Positions 15,001-24,596 of a stretch of DNA of 28,189 nt are shown piece by piece. The notes beneath the pieces are model-generated. The model did not search any database. It was not told where the DNA came from and saw nothing but the letters and a program-made list of their open reading frames with translations. Positions within the stretch are counted from its first letter, which is position 1, and each line of letters starts with the position of its first letter. Location of the stretch: NCBI RefSeq assembly GCF_006345805.1, contig NW_021834039.1, positions 1 to 28,189 of the forward strand, read 5' to 3'. The translations under genes and the position numbers were made by a program. The DNA comes from Octopus sinensis (taxonomy: Eukaryota).

Positions 15001-15020
15001 GCATATAATTATATATGCTA

Positions 15021-15314
15021 TGTTACGGGGACGTAAACATAGCAGCTCCGGTTATCAAGGTTGTCAAGCGGTAGTGTGGGACAAACACAGACAAAAATAC
15101 ATACAAATACAAATACACACAAGCACATACACACACACACACACACACATACATACACACACACAAACATATATACATATATGACGGGCTTCTTTCAGTT
15201 TCCATCTACCAAATCCACTCACAAAGCTTTGGCTGACCCGAGGCTATAGTAGAAGACACTTGCTCAAGGTGCTACAAAGTAGAACTGAACCTGGAACCAA
15301 GTGGTTGGGAAGCA
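15021..15314 (-). mobile_element. SINE family B (5'-truncated head 15181-15314, internal CA tract, probable 3' module 15021-15095)
   Basis: The reverse complement has ggttccaggttcagttc (B-box-like), caccttgagcaagtgtcttctactatagcctcggg and gtgagtggatttggtagatggaaactgaaagaagcccgtc. It is homologous to 3137-3292 and 16452-16554. Confidence 0.8.
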
Positions 15315-16451
15315 CAGATCAATAAACCCATAATCTCACAGATCAATAAACCTATAATCGAATTCAAAAGTTTCCCACTCGCCACAGTCCCATCTTTTAA
15401 CACATAATCCAGATCTTTTAACCTCAGATCTTAACAACATTGCCATAATTTTCCATAGTGTCCCTTTTTTTATTATTAAATAAAGAAGAAAACACTATAA
15501 AAAAACTCGATCATGCTGTGTGCCATGGCGCCAATTACTGTAAAAGAGATAATCACTTCCAGATTAATTATGTCGGCTGAGAAGCTTCAATTTTAAATCG
15601 AAGAGTAACAAAAAAGAGCTACAGAATATACATATTAAATATATATATTTTTCCACTCATTGCGAAAGCTCTTAAATTTTGCAGTCATAGAAAGTCATGT
15701 ATTGTGCCGTTTCATCCATGTCTGAAATTGTCAGCGTGACATAACCCTAGGTTAATAGATTACACCAAATCAAATATTTTACGAAGCGAGACAGCTTAGT
15801 AAGATGTTACAAGAAGACGGGATGCTGGTGGCTGGAAATGATGCTGATTGTAAATCAACTCAGTCATCGCCAGCCCGGAGTTAAAAACAAAACAAAACAA
15901 AAGAATAGCAACAACAACAACAACAACAGTGACTAATGTTTTAATCATTGCGGTCTCCGCCCAAATGAAGTCTATAAAGTGAAGTTTATAAAGGCGGGTG
16001 GGATTGAGATTGCAAGCATTTTAAAGCCGAGTTTGATCTCGTTTATCACGAAGGAGGCGGACAACTCCGTTATGTTTCTGGTGTCTTGAGTTTGCAAGAA
16101 TATTGTAAGACGAAGCCCAAATCTGACAACAGAGTCAGCCCTTATGATTAGTGTCACATCAAACTGGCTCTGGATGGAAGTCTTTACAGAACAAACAGCA
16201 ACAACAAGAACAACAACATATACCAGAAGGTAATAAAGAAGTAGTAAAGAGACGAGCAGGGTTTGACAAGAGCGAAATACAAGCAATTGAAAGAGATGGC
16301 GACCGCGAAGCCAGTCTGCTCTATGGGAATACAGCGCATGCGTACGTGCGTGCGTGTGTATGAGCGCGCGCACCCGTGTTGTGTGTGTTGTAAGATTATT
16401 CACATACGCACACATAATTTATAGATTAGAAACACACACACACACACACAC

Positions 16452-16554
16452 ATACGACGGCCTTCTTTCAGTTCCAGTCTATTCAATCCACTCACAAGGC
16501 TTCGGTCTGACACTTGTTCGGGGACTGAACCAGGAACCATCTGGTTGGAAAGCA
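16452..16554 (-). mobile_element. SINE family B, internally deleted copy
   Basis: gacggccttctttcagttcc..aatccactcacaaggcttcgg..gactgaaccaggaaccatctggttggaaagca aligns to 15181-15314. Confidence 0.8.
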
Positions 16555-17056
16555 GTATGTATGTATGTATGTATGTATGTATGTATGTATATATATTGTA
16601 TGACTGAGCGCCCTCGCGTCGTTTCGTTTCTTTTCTTTTCTTCAAGTAAGTTTTTATATATAATTATGACGCGAAACTCTGTAACCCTTTGCTTGACCTT
16701 TCCTTCCTTCCTATCTGTCTTCCCCTTTGCCTGTCTCTCTCCTTCTTATTTTTCACCCTTTCTGGTTTCCTTTCCTCTCAACATATATCTCTCTCACTGC
16801 CGACCAACTTCCTTTCACTCCAGCCTTCTACAAATCAACACGACTTTTTTCCTTGCGCTCTGAATTTTTCCATCGTCTAGGCTTAAAAAAAGGCCCTCAA
16901 TGTTGGTTTCTTTGTCCTGTTTTTATTCTTTATGTGTACTGTATTTTTTTGTATTTGTATTTTTATTTTGTATTCGTATTTTTATTTGTATTTTTATTTG
17001 TATTGCTTTTACGTCCTGTTCTTGTCACATTTTTTTCTTCCCTTGTTTTTACCCCT

Positions 17057-17088
17057 CTGCAAAGGAATTTTATTTAATTCCTTTGCAG
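17057..17088. other. Perfect 13-bp hairpin
   Basis: ctgcaaaggaatt (17057-17069) / ttattt loop / aattcctttgcag (17076-17088). Confidence 0.9.
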
Positions 17089-17094
17089 GAAGGG

Positions 17095-17170
17095 CCAGTT
17101 CGACGGGTCGTGTTCTGTCCTTACCTTCGAAACACGCATGGAGTCGAACCGGGGACAGCTGATGAAGAGG
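17095..17170 (+). ncRNA. Candidate non-circularly permuted (pseudoknotted) hammerhead ribozyme
   Basis: CUGAUGA 17159-17165, GAAA 17129-17132, GUU cleavage triplet 17112-17114. Stem I is ctgtcctt 17115-17122 / ggggacag 17151-17158. Stem III is cgtgt 17109-17113 / acacg 17132-17136. Stem II is cttc 17125-17128 / gagg 17167-17170. An extra helix is gttcgac 17098-17104 / gtcgaac 17143-17149. Confidence 0.65.
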
Positions 17171-17289
17171 AATGTTCCTTGTGTTGTTTGTCTTGTGCTC
17201 TGTTTTTTCGTTGTTAAAAAAAGTCCGTTTCCATGTTTTTATGTTTTCGTTTCTCATTGAGTTCTACGTCTATTTGTGGGTGTCCTGTA

Positions 17290-17292
<3 letters not shown>

Positions 17293-17364
<72 letters not shown>

Positions 17365-17505
17365 TATACATGTATACATTTTTTAACACATACATGCACG
17401 CAACACACAATACATACATACCTACATACATACATACATAAATACATACATACATACATACATACATACATACATACATACATACATACATACATACATA
17501 CATAC
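17293..17505. repeat. TA and (ACAT)n microsatellites
   Basis: Directly visible. Confidence 0.9.
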
Positions 17506-18550: not shown

Positions 18551-18848
18551 TGTGTGTGTGTGTAATCCTCACTTGGAGGAAAGAAATTCCCTATTGGTTA
18601 TTCGCTGAAGGAGAGAAGGTACTGTAACTGTTTCTAGCATTTGTTTATGAAATGAAGGTGGTTTTATTTGCGCTGGCGAATTGAAGTTTTTAAAAGTTAA
18701 GAGAATATAAAGAAATGTTTTCGGAGAAATTTTATTAATATAATAAATTTAAAAGATATATATTTTCTCTGTTTAAATTGTGGTGAAACACAAGTTGAAG
18801 AGAAACGGGGAGGTTTATGTAACAGCGGGTAAATATTTTAGTTAAAAA

Positions 18849-19211
18849 GACCCGAAATTCTGGGGGAGGGGGCCAGTCGATTAGCTCGACACCAGTTCGC
18901 AACTGGTACTTAATTTATCGATCCTGAAAGGATGAAAGGCAAAATCGACCTCGGCGGAATTTGAACCCAGAACGTAAAGGTAGACGAAATACCTATTTCT
19001 TTACTACCCATAAGGGGCTAAACACAGAGGGGACAAACAAGGACAGACACACGGATTAAGTCGATTATATCGACTCCAGTGCGTAACTGGTGCTAATTTA
19101 TCGACCCCGAAAGGATGAAAGGTAAAGTCGACCTCGGCGGAATTTGAACTCAGAACGTAGCGGCAGACGATATACCGCTCGGCGTGCTAACCACTCTGCC
19201 ACCTCGCCGCT
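18849..19211 (-). mobile_element. tRNA-derived SINE family A, dimeric, best-preserved copy
   Basis: The reverse complement starts gcggcgaggTGGCAGAGTGGttagc (A box) with gaGTTCAAATTCC (B box). It has two copies of gaggtcgac/attttgcctttcatcctttc.g..tcgataaatta..accag, which resembles the Nin/Deu central SINE domain. Confidence 0.9.
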
Positions 19212-20093
19212 TTATGAACTTCAACAATTATAACTCCCCCTCGTCTTATTGTGACTTAATATGGCGTGTCCACTTTATCATAAAATTATATATCAATATG
19301 CTTGTGCGCAGATGTGAGCATGATAACTGATATATGCGTCAACGGGAATAAAAGTGTTTGAACCTCGTAAGCAGATGTAAACTAGGTTATTTTACCACCA
19401 GGAGCATATATGGAGGTCAATGGTTTGTAAGTAAAGGATGTGTAAAACCAGCCCACGTGATCTGTAGTATTCGTCTTTTTCTCTTTACATCTGCCATTCA
19501 TTTTCATTTGTGTTCATAAACATACGTGTGTGTATGGACATCAGCAGCTGTATGTTTGTGTATGTGAGTATATTTTGAGTGTTGTTCGGTCGGTGTATAC
19601 GCATCTGTATATAAGTTCATGTTTGTTTTTTCGTTTTTGGTTTTTCCTTATAATTACTTGAATAATTAGCATCCAAACGCCTGTATCTTAGTGGGAGTAT
19701 GGATGCGTGTGCACTTGCTTTAATTGGCTAATTTTTAGGTCGATTCGTATGTAAACAGAATGGGAGTTCCCGTCAATATGTGCAAGCGTGCATCCTGTGT
19801 GATTACAATGGTAAATAAAAGATGCAAATATAAACGATACTTTATCAAAATCCCTTAAATAATCATTATCAATGATCTCCCTTCAACAATTCATTCTTTC
19901 AAAATAATTCAAGGTTAAGTCTAAGAATCACTTCCGGCGTAAACATATTCCATAAATTGCTCTAAAATACTTACCTTCCACGCAATTTCATTTTTATAGA
20001 AACATTTTTCTTGTTGTATTGCATCAAAAGGTCTCCATGCAGTTATTTAGGAACCTTCAGTAATTCTTTTTGGGAACAGTGAATCTGGAAATG

Positions 20094-20225
20094 GAGGTCG
20101 ACTTTGCCTTTCATCCCTATTTCGGAGTCGATGGAATAAGGATCAGTCAAGTACTGGGGTCGATATAATCGATTCGCTCCCTCCGCCCAAATTTCAGGCC
20201 ACGTGCCTATAGTAGAAAGGATTAA
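20094..20225 (+). mobile_element. SINE family A, 5'-truncated
   Basis: gaggtcgactttgcctttcatcc..gtcgat..gtactggggtcgatataatcga..caaatttcagg matches the 18849-19211 element. Confidence 0.8.
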
Positions 20226-20236
20226 GTTATCTGTAC

Positions 20237-20440
20237 GGCGACGGCGCCGGAAAATGGGCAAAGCGCTATTTCTTTCGTCCATACGTTCTGTGTTCAAGTT
20301 CCGCCACAGTCGACTTTACCTTTCACCCCTTTCAGGGTCGATAAAGCAAGTGCCAGTTGAGCATTAGAGTCGGTGTAACCAACCAGCCACTCCGCCCCCA
20401 AATTTCGGACCTTGTGCTTATAATAGAAACAATTATTGTT
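20237..20440 (+). mobile_element. SINE family A, second adjacent copy, followed by (TATT)n
   Basis: tacgttctgtgttcaagttccgcc..gtcgactttacctttcacccctttcagggtcgataaa..ccagttg..caaatttcggaccttgtgc. Confidence 0.8.
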
Positions 20441-20467
20441 TATATTTATATTTTTACTTATCTATAT

Positions 20468-23506: not shown

Positions 23507-24596
23507 CAGGGCGCGTTGTGTAAATTGTTGTCACCATTTTATATTTTTAATTTCGCGCATGCACTTTCTTTGTTTTTGATTTTGTCGACTACACAGCTTA
23601 GTGGGGTCAGTTGGGCACCGTCTCTGGGAAAAACAGCACCATGACACAATTCGATTCGCTCTGCCAGAAATTTGGAAATGACATGCTGTACTGTTTGGCA
23701 TTTGTGCTGGAAGCTTCAATACGAACATTTCAGAGTGTTTAGGTGTCAATGTGAAGACAGTGCAGAAGATTCGGATTGAGTTGGATGAGTCTGTTGGTGA
23801 TTACAAAGGTAGGGCAGCTCGGAAAGTGCACTCTGATTGTTCTGATGAGAAAATAACTCCTGAATTTGCTGGTGAGATCCAGGCCATTATTGACAACGAT
23901 TCCTCCAAGTCAGTCAGGTCCATCGCCAGGGACATGGTGGTGTCTGTGTTTCTTATCAAGTAGGTTCTACATGAAGACATTCGCTATTCCTCCTACGAGA
24001 TGAGAAAGGGACAATTTTTATCCCATCCCGTCAAGAACTAGAAGTAAGACCGCACTACGAAGCTTTTGAATAAACTGAAGCACCCCCTCCAACCGAACAT
24101 CCCAAAGCAGTGTCCCCCAAAGCATGTCCTGAGAGTGATAAAAATCAAACACTCAGTCAACATCATGGTGTTTGGGATGATCACTAGTGATGGCCACGTT
24201 ATGCCTCCATTTAACCCTCCCACACGGTCTCAGACATAAATGTACGGAGGAGGAAATGCTGCCTTGGGTGAAGAGGATGGCTGCTGGAAGACCCTATGTC
24301 TGGCAACAGGACTCTGCACCATGCCACACAAGCAAGAGAACCCAGTCATGGCTGTCAGACAAGAGGGTTGCAGTCTGGGAGTTAGGTGGCCAGATGTTAG
24401 GGGTGAAATTGTCTGATAGCCATGACTGGGTTCTCCTTTCCGAATTTCTGGCAGAGTGAATTGCGCCATAGTGTTGATTTTTTCATAGACGGTGCCCAAC
24501 TGACTCTTCTATACTGTGTAGTCGAAAAAATAAAAAAAACAAAGAATGCGCGAAATTAAAAATATAAAATAGCAACAATTTACCCACCGCACCCTG
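23507..24596 (+). mobile_element. Tc1/mariner (maT/DD37D-like) transposon, rearranged, TA-flanked, with ~170-bp terminal inverted repeats
   Basis: TA|CAGGGCGCG at 23507 and CGCACCCTG|TA at 24596. The decayed transposase reads IQAIIDNDSSKSVRSIARDM, EDIRYSSY, MVFGMITSDGHVMPP and GRPYVWQQDSAPCHTSKRTQSWLSD. A WPPNS(P)DCNPL motif lies on the opposite strand at 24361-24400. Confidence 0.92.

What the first reader, a model, noticed from the sequence alone, without database searches (positions are those of the whole stretch)
17095..17180. Hammerhead ribozyme with non-circularly permuted (pseudoknotted) strand order
Seen in sequence: every conserved hammerhead core base is present. C3-A9 = CUGAUGA 17159-17165, G12-A15.1 = GAAA 17129-17132, U16.1 = 17113, H17 = U17114. 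Stem I (17115-17122/17151-17158, 6 WC + 2 GU) and stem III (17109-17113/17132-17136, 5 WC) abut the core in exact register. Stem II is a weaker 4 bp (17125-17128/17167-17170) after one extra A, an insertion common in PLE-type hammerheads. The linear order is [III'-UH-I][II'-GAAA-III][I'-CUGAUGA-II]. Established: types I, II and III are the three circular permutations, and this is the opposite cyclic order, which forces pseudoknots and is missed by standard descriptors. A further 7-bp perfect helix (gttcgac/gtcgaac) extends stem III. From memory, non-circularly permuted hammerheads have been reported only rarely (Xenopus). Inference: this is a rearranged self-cleaving ribozyme family carried by a cephalopod-type repeat, cutting after 17114, in cis or as a dimer.
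Basis: partly seen in the sequence, partly recalled or inferred. Interest (0 to 1): 0.92.

Follow-up and report, generated by a model that had tools for sequence, protein, structure and literature searches.

The report
Split-core permuted hammerhead in animal retrotransposons
A jumping-gene family with thousands of copies in this animal genome carries what looks like a self-cutting hammerhead RNA whose parts are strung in an order not described before, with the catalytic core itself interrupted, and the same fold appears in related Naiad retrotransposons that were thought to lack such an RNA.

Summary
The window holds one ~820-bp unit of a non-coding tandem/inverted repeat; a core pattern in this order matches 9,798 places versus 167 in the control. 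Stems I and III covary between subfamilies. Stem II pairs with an upstream strand (17089-17093), not the strand after CUGAUGA: at least 4 Watson-Crick pairs in 74-92% versus 0-4% of copies. The core is thus opened between A9 and G10.1, where two extra helices sit. This lies outside the six permutations of Eckert et al. 2023, which assume that junction is unbroken. The fold recurs beside Naiad reverse-transcriptase genes in this genome (18 of 30 loci) and in 6 of 80 protein-selected metagenome loci, although Naiads were published as lacking canonical hammerheads. Copies' 5' ends pile up just after the predicted cut (17 versus 4.3 expected; 11 versus 2.5 in a second family), indirect evidence of cleavage in vivo. 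Cleavage is untested, no autonomous partner was found, and this copy has a mismatch in one extra helix.

The parts
16555..17376 (+). One unit (~820 bp) of a non-coding, Penelope-like tandem/inverted repeat (family A), bounded by (TATG)n and (TA)n microsatellites
   Evidence: BLAST of 30 genomic copies covers 16555-17379, head-to-tail and inverted; ribozyme spacing in tandems 774-921 nt, n=6
16644..16651 (+). AAGTAAGT, splice-donor-like motif near which other copies end at their 3' side (inferred pseudo-LTR boundary)
   Evidence: Sequence; 3' ends of L003, L019, L021; splicing not shown
17052..17056 (+). P5, 5' strand (CCCCT); closes the ribozyme
17057..17088 (+). P0 hairpin, 13 WC pairs; its last base abuts G10.1
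   Evidence: 13/13 WC, pair probability 0.98; covarying base of the hairpin in subfamilies and Naiads
17089..17093 (+). Stem II strand starting at G10.1 (GAAGG), separated from CUGAUGA
17098..17104 (+). P4, 5' strand; with 17143-17149 it joins the distal ends of stems II and I (inferred equivalent of the I-II helix of type-SGC ribozymes)
   Evidence: matched mean 6.6 WC vs 4.0 swapped; at least 6 WC in 9 of 15 vs 16 of 210
17109..17113 (+). Stem III, 5' strand ending in U16.1
17114..17115 (+). H17 (U) and predicted scissile bond 17114/17115 (GUU triplet)
   Evidence: pile-up of copy 5' ends from 17114 on
17115..17122 (+). Stem I strand 3' of the cut (6 WC + 2 GU), running into a 1-3 nt link to stem II
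17124..17128 (+). Stem II strand ending in C11.1 (CCTTC)
17129..17136 (+). G12-A13-A14-A15.1 and stem III 3' strand
17143..17149 (+). P4, 3' strand
17151..17158 (+). Stem I strand preceding the core
17159..17165 (+). C3-U4-G5-A6-U7-G8-A9
17166..17170 (+). P5, 3' strand directly after A9; this copy has A at 17168 (C-A mismatch), most copies G
   Evidence: 38 of 42 G; 67 of 70 G; duplex -1.5 vs -7.4 kcal/mol for a G copy

Best explanation
The site is a self-cleaving hammerhead ribozyme of a new topology in a non-autonomous Penelope-like retroelement. Strand order: P5a - P0 hairpin - stem II (G10.1 strand) - P4a - stem III, U16.1, H17 | stem I - short link - stem II (C11.1 strand) - GAAA - stem III' - P4b - stem I' - CUGAUGA - P5b. 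Stems I, II and III+P4 cross each other (double pseudoknot), as in type-SGC ribozymes. But the chain is opened inside the core between A9 and G10.1, where hairpin P0 and closing helix P5 abut with no unpaired bases; the RNA's ends leave through P5. Shown: sequence, helices, covariation, copy number, link of the same fold to Naiad RT genes. Inferred: transcripts of tandem units fold in cis and cut after H17 (5'-OH and 2',3'-cyclic phosphate, standard hammerhead chemistry), releasing ~800-nt unit RNAs; a PLE reverse transcriptase/endonuclease acting in trans copies them into (TA)n microsatellites and often runs off at the cleaved 5' end. Circularisation by a host ligase, as shown for animal retrozymes (PMC7229834), is possible but untested.
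For: (1) Core conserved: 11 changes in 773 core bases vs 274 in 6,040 3'-flank bases among 88 copies chosen only by a 3'-flank 21-mer (Fisher p=9e-6). (2) Stems I+III: 8.0 WC pairs in matched copies (96 kept of 119) vs 2.4 in 6,086 cross-subfamily swaps; at least 7 pairs in 74% vs 1.8%. (3) Upstream stem II: at least 4 WC in 92% of 75, 74% of 27, 86% of 14 copies, vs 0-15% in cross-family swaps and 0-4% for the downstream strand. (4) P5 with no freedom of register once P0 is fixed: 4.6, 4.5 and 3.6 WC of 5 in 39, 13 and 12 copies. In 16 hand-picked representatives every non-core position of I, II, III, P0, P5 shows 2-4 WC pair types, while G10.1-C11.1 and U16.1-A15.1 are invariant. (5) Independent loci: of 80 metagenome loci selected only by similarity to Naiad proteins, 6 have the split-core order and 2 (identical) the CSG order, all sense and outside the ORF. 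L245, L246, L251 and L253 have all six helices in unrelated sequence. An order-agnostic scan found only these two orders and no hit in 417 kb of ORF and antisense control. (6) In this genome a sister form lies downstream of Naiad RT remnants, same strand, in 18 of 30 RT-selected loci; 343 motif copies vs 0 control; full-length homologs have an N-terminal GIY-YIG domain. (7) 5' ends of copies: 17 of 88 fall in 17114-17136, 4.25 expected; this is the best 23-nt window of the whole unit and starts at the predicted cut (scan p = 1/2000). Family C, window fixed beforehand: 11 of 40 vs 2.5 expected, p=6e-5. (8) Related type-SGC and CSG ribozymes cleave in vitro at 0.004-0.19 per min (PMC10085705).
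Against: No cleavage assay and no RNA-end data. No autonomous partner of families A-C was found: all Naiad ORFs seen here are decayed, and the unit shares only a 26-nt core match with Naiad 3' ends (E=0.035), so the Naiad link rests on shared architecture and targeting. 72 of 80 Naiad-like metagenome loci gave no hit (68 of 80 had at least 150 nt downstream), and three bivalve Naiad 3' ends show no core by eye: the fold is not universal. P5 scored poorly in the decayed Naiad family (2.0 of 5, n=6), P5 swaps among families A-C drop only to 3.3-3.6 because they share most bases, and a slid register reaches 3.9 in family A. P0/P5 are unclear in L307 and L312. An unbiased mutual-information scan on a plain MAFFT alignment was noisy and recovered only two of the modelled pairs in its top 30. 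Family C ends begin at +7, not +1; 5' ends come from local alignments next to microsatellites; copies are not fully independent. This copy has a C-A mismatch in P5, and only 21 of 50 full-length copies pass a strict score. Nested-fold prediction gives P5 and stem II no probability in this copy (it cannot model pseudoknots).
Confidence: 0.8

Rival explanations
1. Plain type-SGC hammerhead: stem II forms from the strand right after CUGAUGA plus one bulged A; the upstream strand is a decoy or an alternative (off-state) pairing.
For: A G10.1-C11.1 pair plus 3 further pairs (mostly GU) can be drawn in all octopus families (last column); HRIMA-1 also has one extra base after A9; PLE hammerheads commonly have a 9.1 base (PMC4209133).
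Against: At least 4 WC pairs in 0-4% of copies vs 74-92% upstream; no specificity in swaps; duplex -1.0 or 0.0 vs -4.6 kcal/mol; the downstream pairing is absent in all five metagenome representatives, where the same bases pair in P5.
Confidence: 0.06
2. The helices are right but the active core assembles in trans or between neighbouring tandem units (dimer), as described for minimal PLE hammerheads.
For: Units occur in tandem; covariation cannot tell cis from trans; dimeric action is reported for PLE variants (title of Lunse et al. in a reference list; paper not held).
Against: All helices are 4-13 bp and lie within 120 nt; Naiad loci carry a single motif per 3' region; no conserved palindromic stem III loop is present because stem III has no loop.
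Confidence: 0.06
3. A hammerhead-derived structure kept for another job (recognition by the PLE protein, 3' end protection) that no longer cleaves; the 5' end pile-up reflects reverse transcriptase stalling in the pseudoknot.
For: No natural hammerhead with a long interruption at A9/G10.1 was known to Eckert et al.; many Naiads thrive without it; RNA data are uninformative.
Against: Every catalytic base, the NUH triplet and G10.1-C11.1 are kept across unrelated elements. Stalling should begin at the 3' edge of the fold, yet 17137-17170 holds only 4 ends and +23 to +70 holds 3 vs 6.6 expected; the excess stops at the predicted cut.
Confidence: 0.08

Closest known systems
Type-SGC hammerhead (HRIMA-1 and variant), Eckert et al. 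2023, PMC10085705 (read: abstract, sections 13-16, first part of 18, passages, one supplement part)
   Same: Cyclic order S-G-C, double pseudoknot, about 3-nt link from stem I into stem II, a helix joining distal stems I and II, often G at the third stem I position.
   Different: There CUGAnGA continues into stem II (block C assumed uninterruptible) and the ends lie at stem III and the I-II helix. Here the ends lie inside block C with two extra helices. Known examples come from metatranscriptomes/metagenomes; 'Octopus', 'Metazoa' and 'Eukaryota' occur 0 times in its supplement text.
Type-CSG hammerhead (two sequences in Eckert et al. 2023)
   Same: Same cyclic order; found here in Naiad-like loci L303/L304 and by eye in six passages of published Naiad consensus.
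   Different: Block C intact; not the form at this locus.
Naiad Penelope-like elements, Craig et al. 2021, PMC8557442 (read: passages, metadata sheet, two consensus parts, motif look-ups)
   Same: (TA)n targeting, tandem and inverted insertions; the published Naiad_Obim and Naiad_Ovul 3' ends hold the same split-core fold by eye; Naiad_Ovul was flagged 'HHR_half_core'.
   Different: The paper reports no canonical hammerhead in Naiads and did not resolve these cores. The window's element has no ORF and no detectable homology to Naiads outside the ribozyme.
Minimal type I hammerheads of PLEs (Cervera and de la Pena 2014, PMC4209133; read: passages) and animal non-LTR retrozymes (PMC7229834 and bioRxiv 10.64898/2026.07.22.740005; read: passages)
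   Same: Ribozyme in the pseudo-LTR or tandem unit of PLE-derived non-coding repeats; proposed role in cutting multimeric transcripts to unit length.
   Different: These are circularly permuted type I folds with at most one base between A9 and G10.1. Such a canonical family also exists in this genome (L095, L097, L098, L117).

Membership tests
Hammerhead ribozyme | Core C3-A9, G12-A15.1, U16.1, H17 | tested here: met
Hammerhead ribozyme | Stems I, II, III abutting the core, with covariation | tested here: met
   (stem II with the upstream strand)
Hammerhead ribozyme | G10.1-C11.1 pair | tested here: met
   16 of 16 representatives (a starting G was required by the scan); G17089 in 51 of 51 and C17128 in 68 of 68 flank-selected copies
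Hammerhead ribozyme | Site-specific self-cleavage after H17 | not testable with these tools
   only indirect: 5' end pile-up
Type I/II/III (circular permutations) | Cyclic order C-G-S, pseudoknot-free three-way junction | tested here: not met
   order S-G-C; no Rfam hammerhead match
Type-SGC (Eckert 2023) | Block order S, G, C | tested here: met
Type-SGC (Eckert 2023) | Block C uninterrupted: CUGAnGA runs into stem II with at most 1-2 inserted bases | tested here: not met
Type-SGC (Eckert 2023) | Short stem I to stem II link and a helix joining distal I and II | tested here: met
   link 2-5 nt; P4
Naiad PLE | Single ORF with N-terminal GIY-YIG, CxC and C-terminal RT | tested here: not met
   the unit is non-coding; met only for relatives of the sister family
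Naiad PLE | (TA)n targeting, tandem and inverted insertions | tested here: met
Naiad PLE | 3' sequence homology to an autonomous Naiad | tested here: inconclusive
   only a 26-nt core match; same six-helix layout, and the stem I of subfamily L130 equals that of the Naiad form
Non-LTR retrozyme | Non-coding tandem units each with a hammerhead | tested here: met
Non-LTR retrozyme | Type I hammerhead | tested here: not met
Non-LTR retrozyme | Abundant circular unit RNAs | not testable with these tools
   a circle would reproduce the tandem DNA sequence; only contigs were available

The most novel reading that the evidence does not exclude
The hammerhead core has a fourth natural break point, between A9 and G10.1. 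An active ribozyme opened there and braced by two extra helices is a permutation outside the six thought possible. It occurs in Naiad retrotransposons and their non-coding derivatives across cnidarians, crustaceans and cephalopods, while other Naiads use the rare CSG order, so many Naiads do have hammerheads and animal genomes hold thousands of non-circularly permuted ribozymes that all type I-III searches miss.
Probability: 0.72. Interest if true: 0.92.

Novelty: new variant of a known kind. Interest (0 to 1): 0.86.

Why it matters
It changes the rules for the best-studied small ribozyme: the published permutation scheme assumes the CUGAnGA-stem II joint cannot be broken. It moves non-circular permutations from a few hundred environmental sequences to high-copy elements in animal chromosomes. 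It offers a concrete answer to why Naiad retrotransposons seemed to lack hammerheads, and gives a ~125-nt RNA that can be tested in a day. The 5' end pile-up would be rare genomic evidence that a PLE ribozyme defines the template end in retrotransposition, a role so far only hypothesised. A core with both RNA ends at the 9/10.1 junction is also a new attachment point for engineered RNA switches.

Tried and rejected
Rfam: whole window (150 of 242 rows shown, microsatellite noise), the site and 10 loci gave no hammerhead match. Mutual information on a MAFFT alignment of 50 copies was noisy because subfamilies were mis-registered; it gave the lead for the upstream stem II but is not used as proof. 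A 10-sequence alignment had one row on the wrong strand and was not used. In one search the window row was mis-registered by relaxed thresholds; searches give the right pairs. Sequencing runs: no RNA holder listed on record; four runs were contigs only and showed no splice joint and nothing on RNA ends. Splice acceptor at 17082-17088: rejected, because several subfamilies have CGG there and it is the base of P0. A helix between the strand after A9 and the 3' arm of P0: rejected in favour of P5. Autonomous partner: the top 30 of 147 GIY-YIG loci and three young C-terminal-GIY ORFs show no such ribozyme of their own; family C copies lie at the 3' end of two of them. The first protein search with a 141-aa piece found nothing; viral contigs held no Naiad relative. 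The 5' end test was not run for family B. Darwinula and Paralithodes Naiad cores could not be parsed by eye. Supplement sequences were read by eye only, not computed on. Earlier findings of this scan: three look-ups, nothing. Literature: searches found no report of permuted hammerheads in Naiads or animals, nor of a break at A9/G10.1. Weinberg et al. 2015 and Lunse et al. 2017 are not held; the former is cited for hammerhead variants with additional helices, and where those helices sit I could not check.

Full report
Observation. The window is a whole 28-kb contig of a 2.72-Gb genome; that it is an octopus is my inference from 343 exact matches to a motif of published octopus Naiad elements. 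The site lies in one unit of a repeat, 16555-17376, with 2,849 first-look candidates, of which 40 were scored at 92-100% identity. Copies occur head-to-tail and inverted and end in (TA)n or near AAGTAAGT, the arrangement described for Penelope-like elements. The unit has no ORF of note. A pattern demanding GAAA before CUGAnGA matches 9,798 places against 167 for the reversed control. Of 71 motifs cut from 70 loci (the first 30 listed plus 40 of the next 70, chosen by me for diversity), 4 belonged to a canonical type I family and 1 looked unrelated.

Stems I and III. A diverged sister family next to one copy led to several subfamilies with different helix sequences. I swapped the strand carrying the cut site between subfamilies, with the same freedom of register. 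Matched copies gave 8.0 Watson-Crick pairs, swapped ones 2.4; at least 7 pairs in 74% against 1.8% (96 of 119 motifs kept, 23 dropped as 5'-truncated or abutting microsatellite; 6,086 swaps).

Stem II is not where it was drawn. The order S-G-C is the published type-SGC (PMC10085705), and I first read the site that way. But the strand before GAAA changes between families (CCTTC, TGCTC, GGTGTC), and a strand about 35-43 nt upstream changes with it (GAAGG, GAGCA, GACACC). It gives at least 4 WC pairs in 92% of 75, 74% of 27 and 86% of 14 copies (116 of 146 motifs kept), and in 0-15% of cross-family swaps; the strand after CUGAUGA does so in 0-4%. G10.1 is therefore 17089. Directly 5' of it is a hairpin (P0, 17057-17088). 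Directly 5' of that is a strand that pairs with the bases directly after A9 (P5): 4.6, 4.5 and 3.6 WC pairs of 5 in 39 of 47, 13 of 19 and 12 of 20 copies with a clear P0, but only 2.0 in 6 of 11 decayed Naiad copies; slid controls gave 1.3-3.9. The fold is thus the type-SGC architecture reopened inside the core. Eckert et al. derive their six permutations by assuming that this joint cannot be interrupted. A descriptor for the fold hits this one site in the window and none in 60 shuffled windows.

Link to Naiads. Craig et al. 2021 report that Naiads lack canonical hammerheads but flag cores they could not fold, including Naiad_Ovul. By eye, the published 3' ends of Naiad_Obim and Naiad_Ovul, three Acropora Naiads, one element in the Clytia part of the file, two in the Morbakka/Pomphorhynchus part and one following the Eulimnadia header (names partly inferred from file order) show the split-core fold. 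Six passages in the nematode part show the CSG order. Three bivalve 3' ends and Naiad_Omin show no core. I saw only passages and two parts of the 54 consensus sequences. Computed tests: in this genome 18 of 30 loci chosen by Naiad RT DNA carry the sister ribozyme downstream on the same strand, and 4 of 20 more diverged RT hits do. A 320-aa RT piece retrieved 38 longer proteins; the three scanned have an N-terminal GIY-YIG domain. With their alignment I fetched 80 metagenome loci, selected by protein alone. Six have the split-core order and two identical ones the CSG order, all on the sense strand outside the ORF; 72 gave no hit. L245, L246, L251 and L253 have all six helices in unrelated sequence; L248 holds a copy cut off before the core. 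An order-agnostic scan returned only these two orders, with no hit in 417 kb of ORF and antisense sequence. Across 16 hand-picked representatives each non-core helix position shows 2-4 WC pair types. The window's own family remains without an identified autonomous partner, so I file it as a non-autonomous PLE-type element with a Naiad-type ribozyme, not as a Naiad.

Is it active? Nothing here shows cleavage directly; the runs offered were contigs. Two indirect tests used copies picked only by a 3'-flank word (782 such places; 88 copies analysed from 90 loci). The core carries fewer changes than the flank (11 of 773 vs 274 of 6,040). The 5' ends of copies crowd into 17114-17136: 17 against 4.25 expected, with 5 against 3.5 in the 23 nt before the cut; the best window of the whole unit starts at the predicted cut, and 1 of 2,000 simulations matched it. 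In family C (first 40 of 2,173 places) 11 ends fall at 0 to +22 against 2.5 expected, 3 against 1.9 before the cut and 3 against 6.6 at +23 to +70. This fits reverse transcriptase running off a cleaved template and fits stalling at the fold's 3' edge poorly. Caveats: ends are alignment estimates beside microsatellites, family C ends start at +7, and some copies are related. This copy itself has a C-A mismatch in P5 (duplex -1.5 vs -7.4 kcal/mol) and may be slow; 21 of 50 full-length copies pass a strict score.

Mechanism. Shown: helices, covariation, distribution. Inferred from hammerhead chemistry and retrozyme work: tandem transcripts fold in cis, cut after H17 and yield ~800-nt unit RNAs that a PLE enzyme inserts at (TA)n; ligation to circles is possible. 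That a break at A9/G10.1 is tolerated is plausible because natural single-base insertions occur there, and P5 and P0 may stack to hold the junction; this is inference, not shown.

Novelty and verdict. Nine searches found no report of this topology or of permuted hammerheads in animals; a 2026 preprint on animal retrozymes uses type I models only (passages). Weinberg et al. 2015, cited for variants with additional helices, could not be read, which leaves open whether an extra helix at this junction has a precedent; bioRxiv supplements were not seen. Verdict: a real feature, a new variant of a known kind, interest 0.86. It works like a type-SGC hammerhead but fails that type's defining uninterrupted block C.

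Noticed in passing
L095, L097, L098, L117; many rows: A second, very abundant repeat family in this genome carries a canonical minimal type I hammerhead with a palindromic stem III.
   Followed up: partly
L303 and L304 (about 900 nt past the ORF); published Naiad consensus, file parts 13-16: Type-CSG hammerheads, known so far from two sequences, sit in Naiad-like elements with a clear I-II helix.
   Followed up: partly
L072 ~2800-3264 and L082 ~2690-3100 (oriented to the ORF): Family C elements lie at the 3' end of two of 30 C-terminal GIY-YIG PLE copies, one fused directly; shared (TA)n targeting or a hint at the mobilising enzyme.
   Followed up: partly
L217-L219, L067, L068: Young PLE families with C-terminal GIY-YIG and long open frames (up to 781-883 aa) show no hammerhead in their 3' regions by my scans; one has repeated CCAAT-like boxes.
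   Followed up: partly
L252, L257; proteins P0025-P0037: Several Naiad-like ORFs carry an extra ubiquitin C-terminal hydrolase domain (PF00443); in L252 and L257 the frame continues past the RT.
   Followed up: no
L307 ~3100-3190, L312 ~200-290: Split-core ribozymes in which P0 and P5 are not clearly formed; possibly a simpler variant.
   Followed up: no
Published bivalve Naiad 3' ends: No hammerhead core, but a short GC-rich block with similar wording in two species follows the stop codon; perhaps another structured RNA.
   Followed up: no
window ~5600-8050: Direct duplication with a period of about 1.19 kb (repeated ORF texts and tandem rows); real duplication or assembly artefact.
   Followed up: no
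window 23682-24460: Decayed Tc1/mariner-like transposase pieces (my reading of the translation; not searched against a library).
   Followed up: no
window 15017-15319, 16400-16550, 18846-19218, 20094-20446: Other high-copy interspersed repeats, SINE-like; 18846-19218 holds two tandem copies.
   Followed up: no
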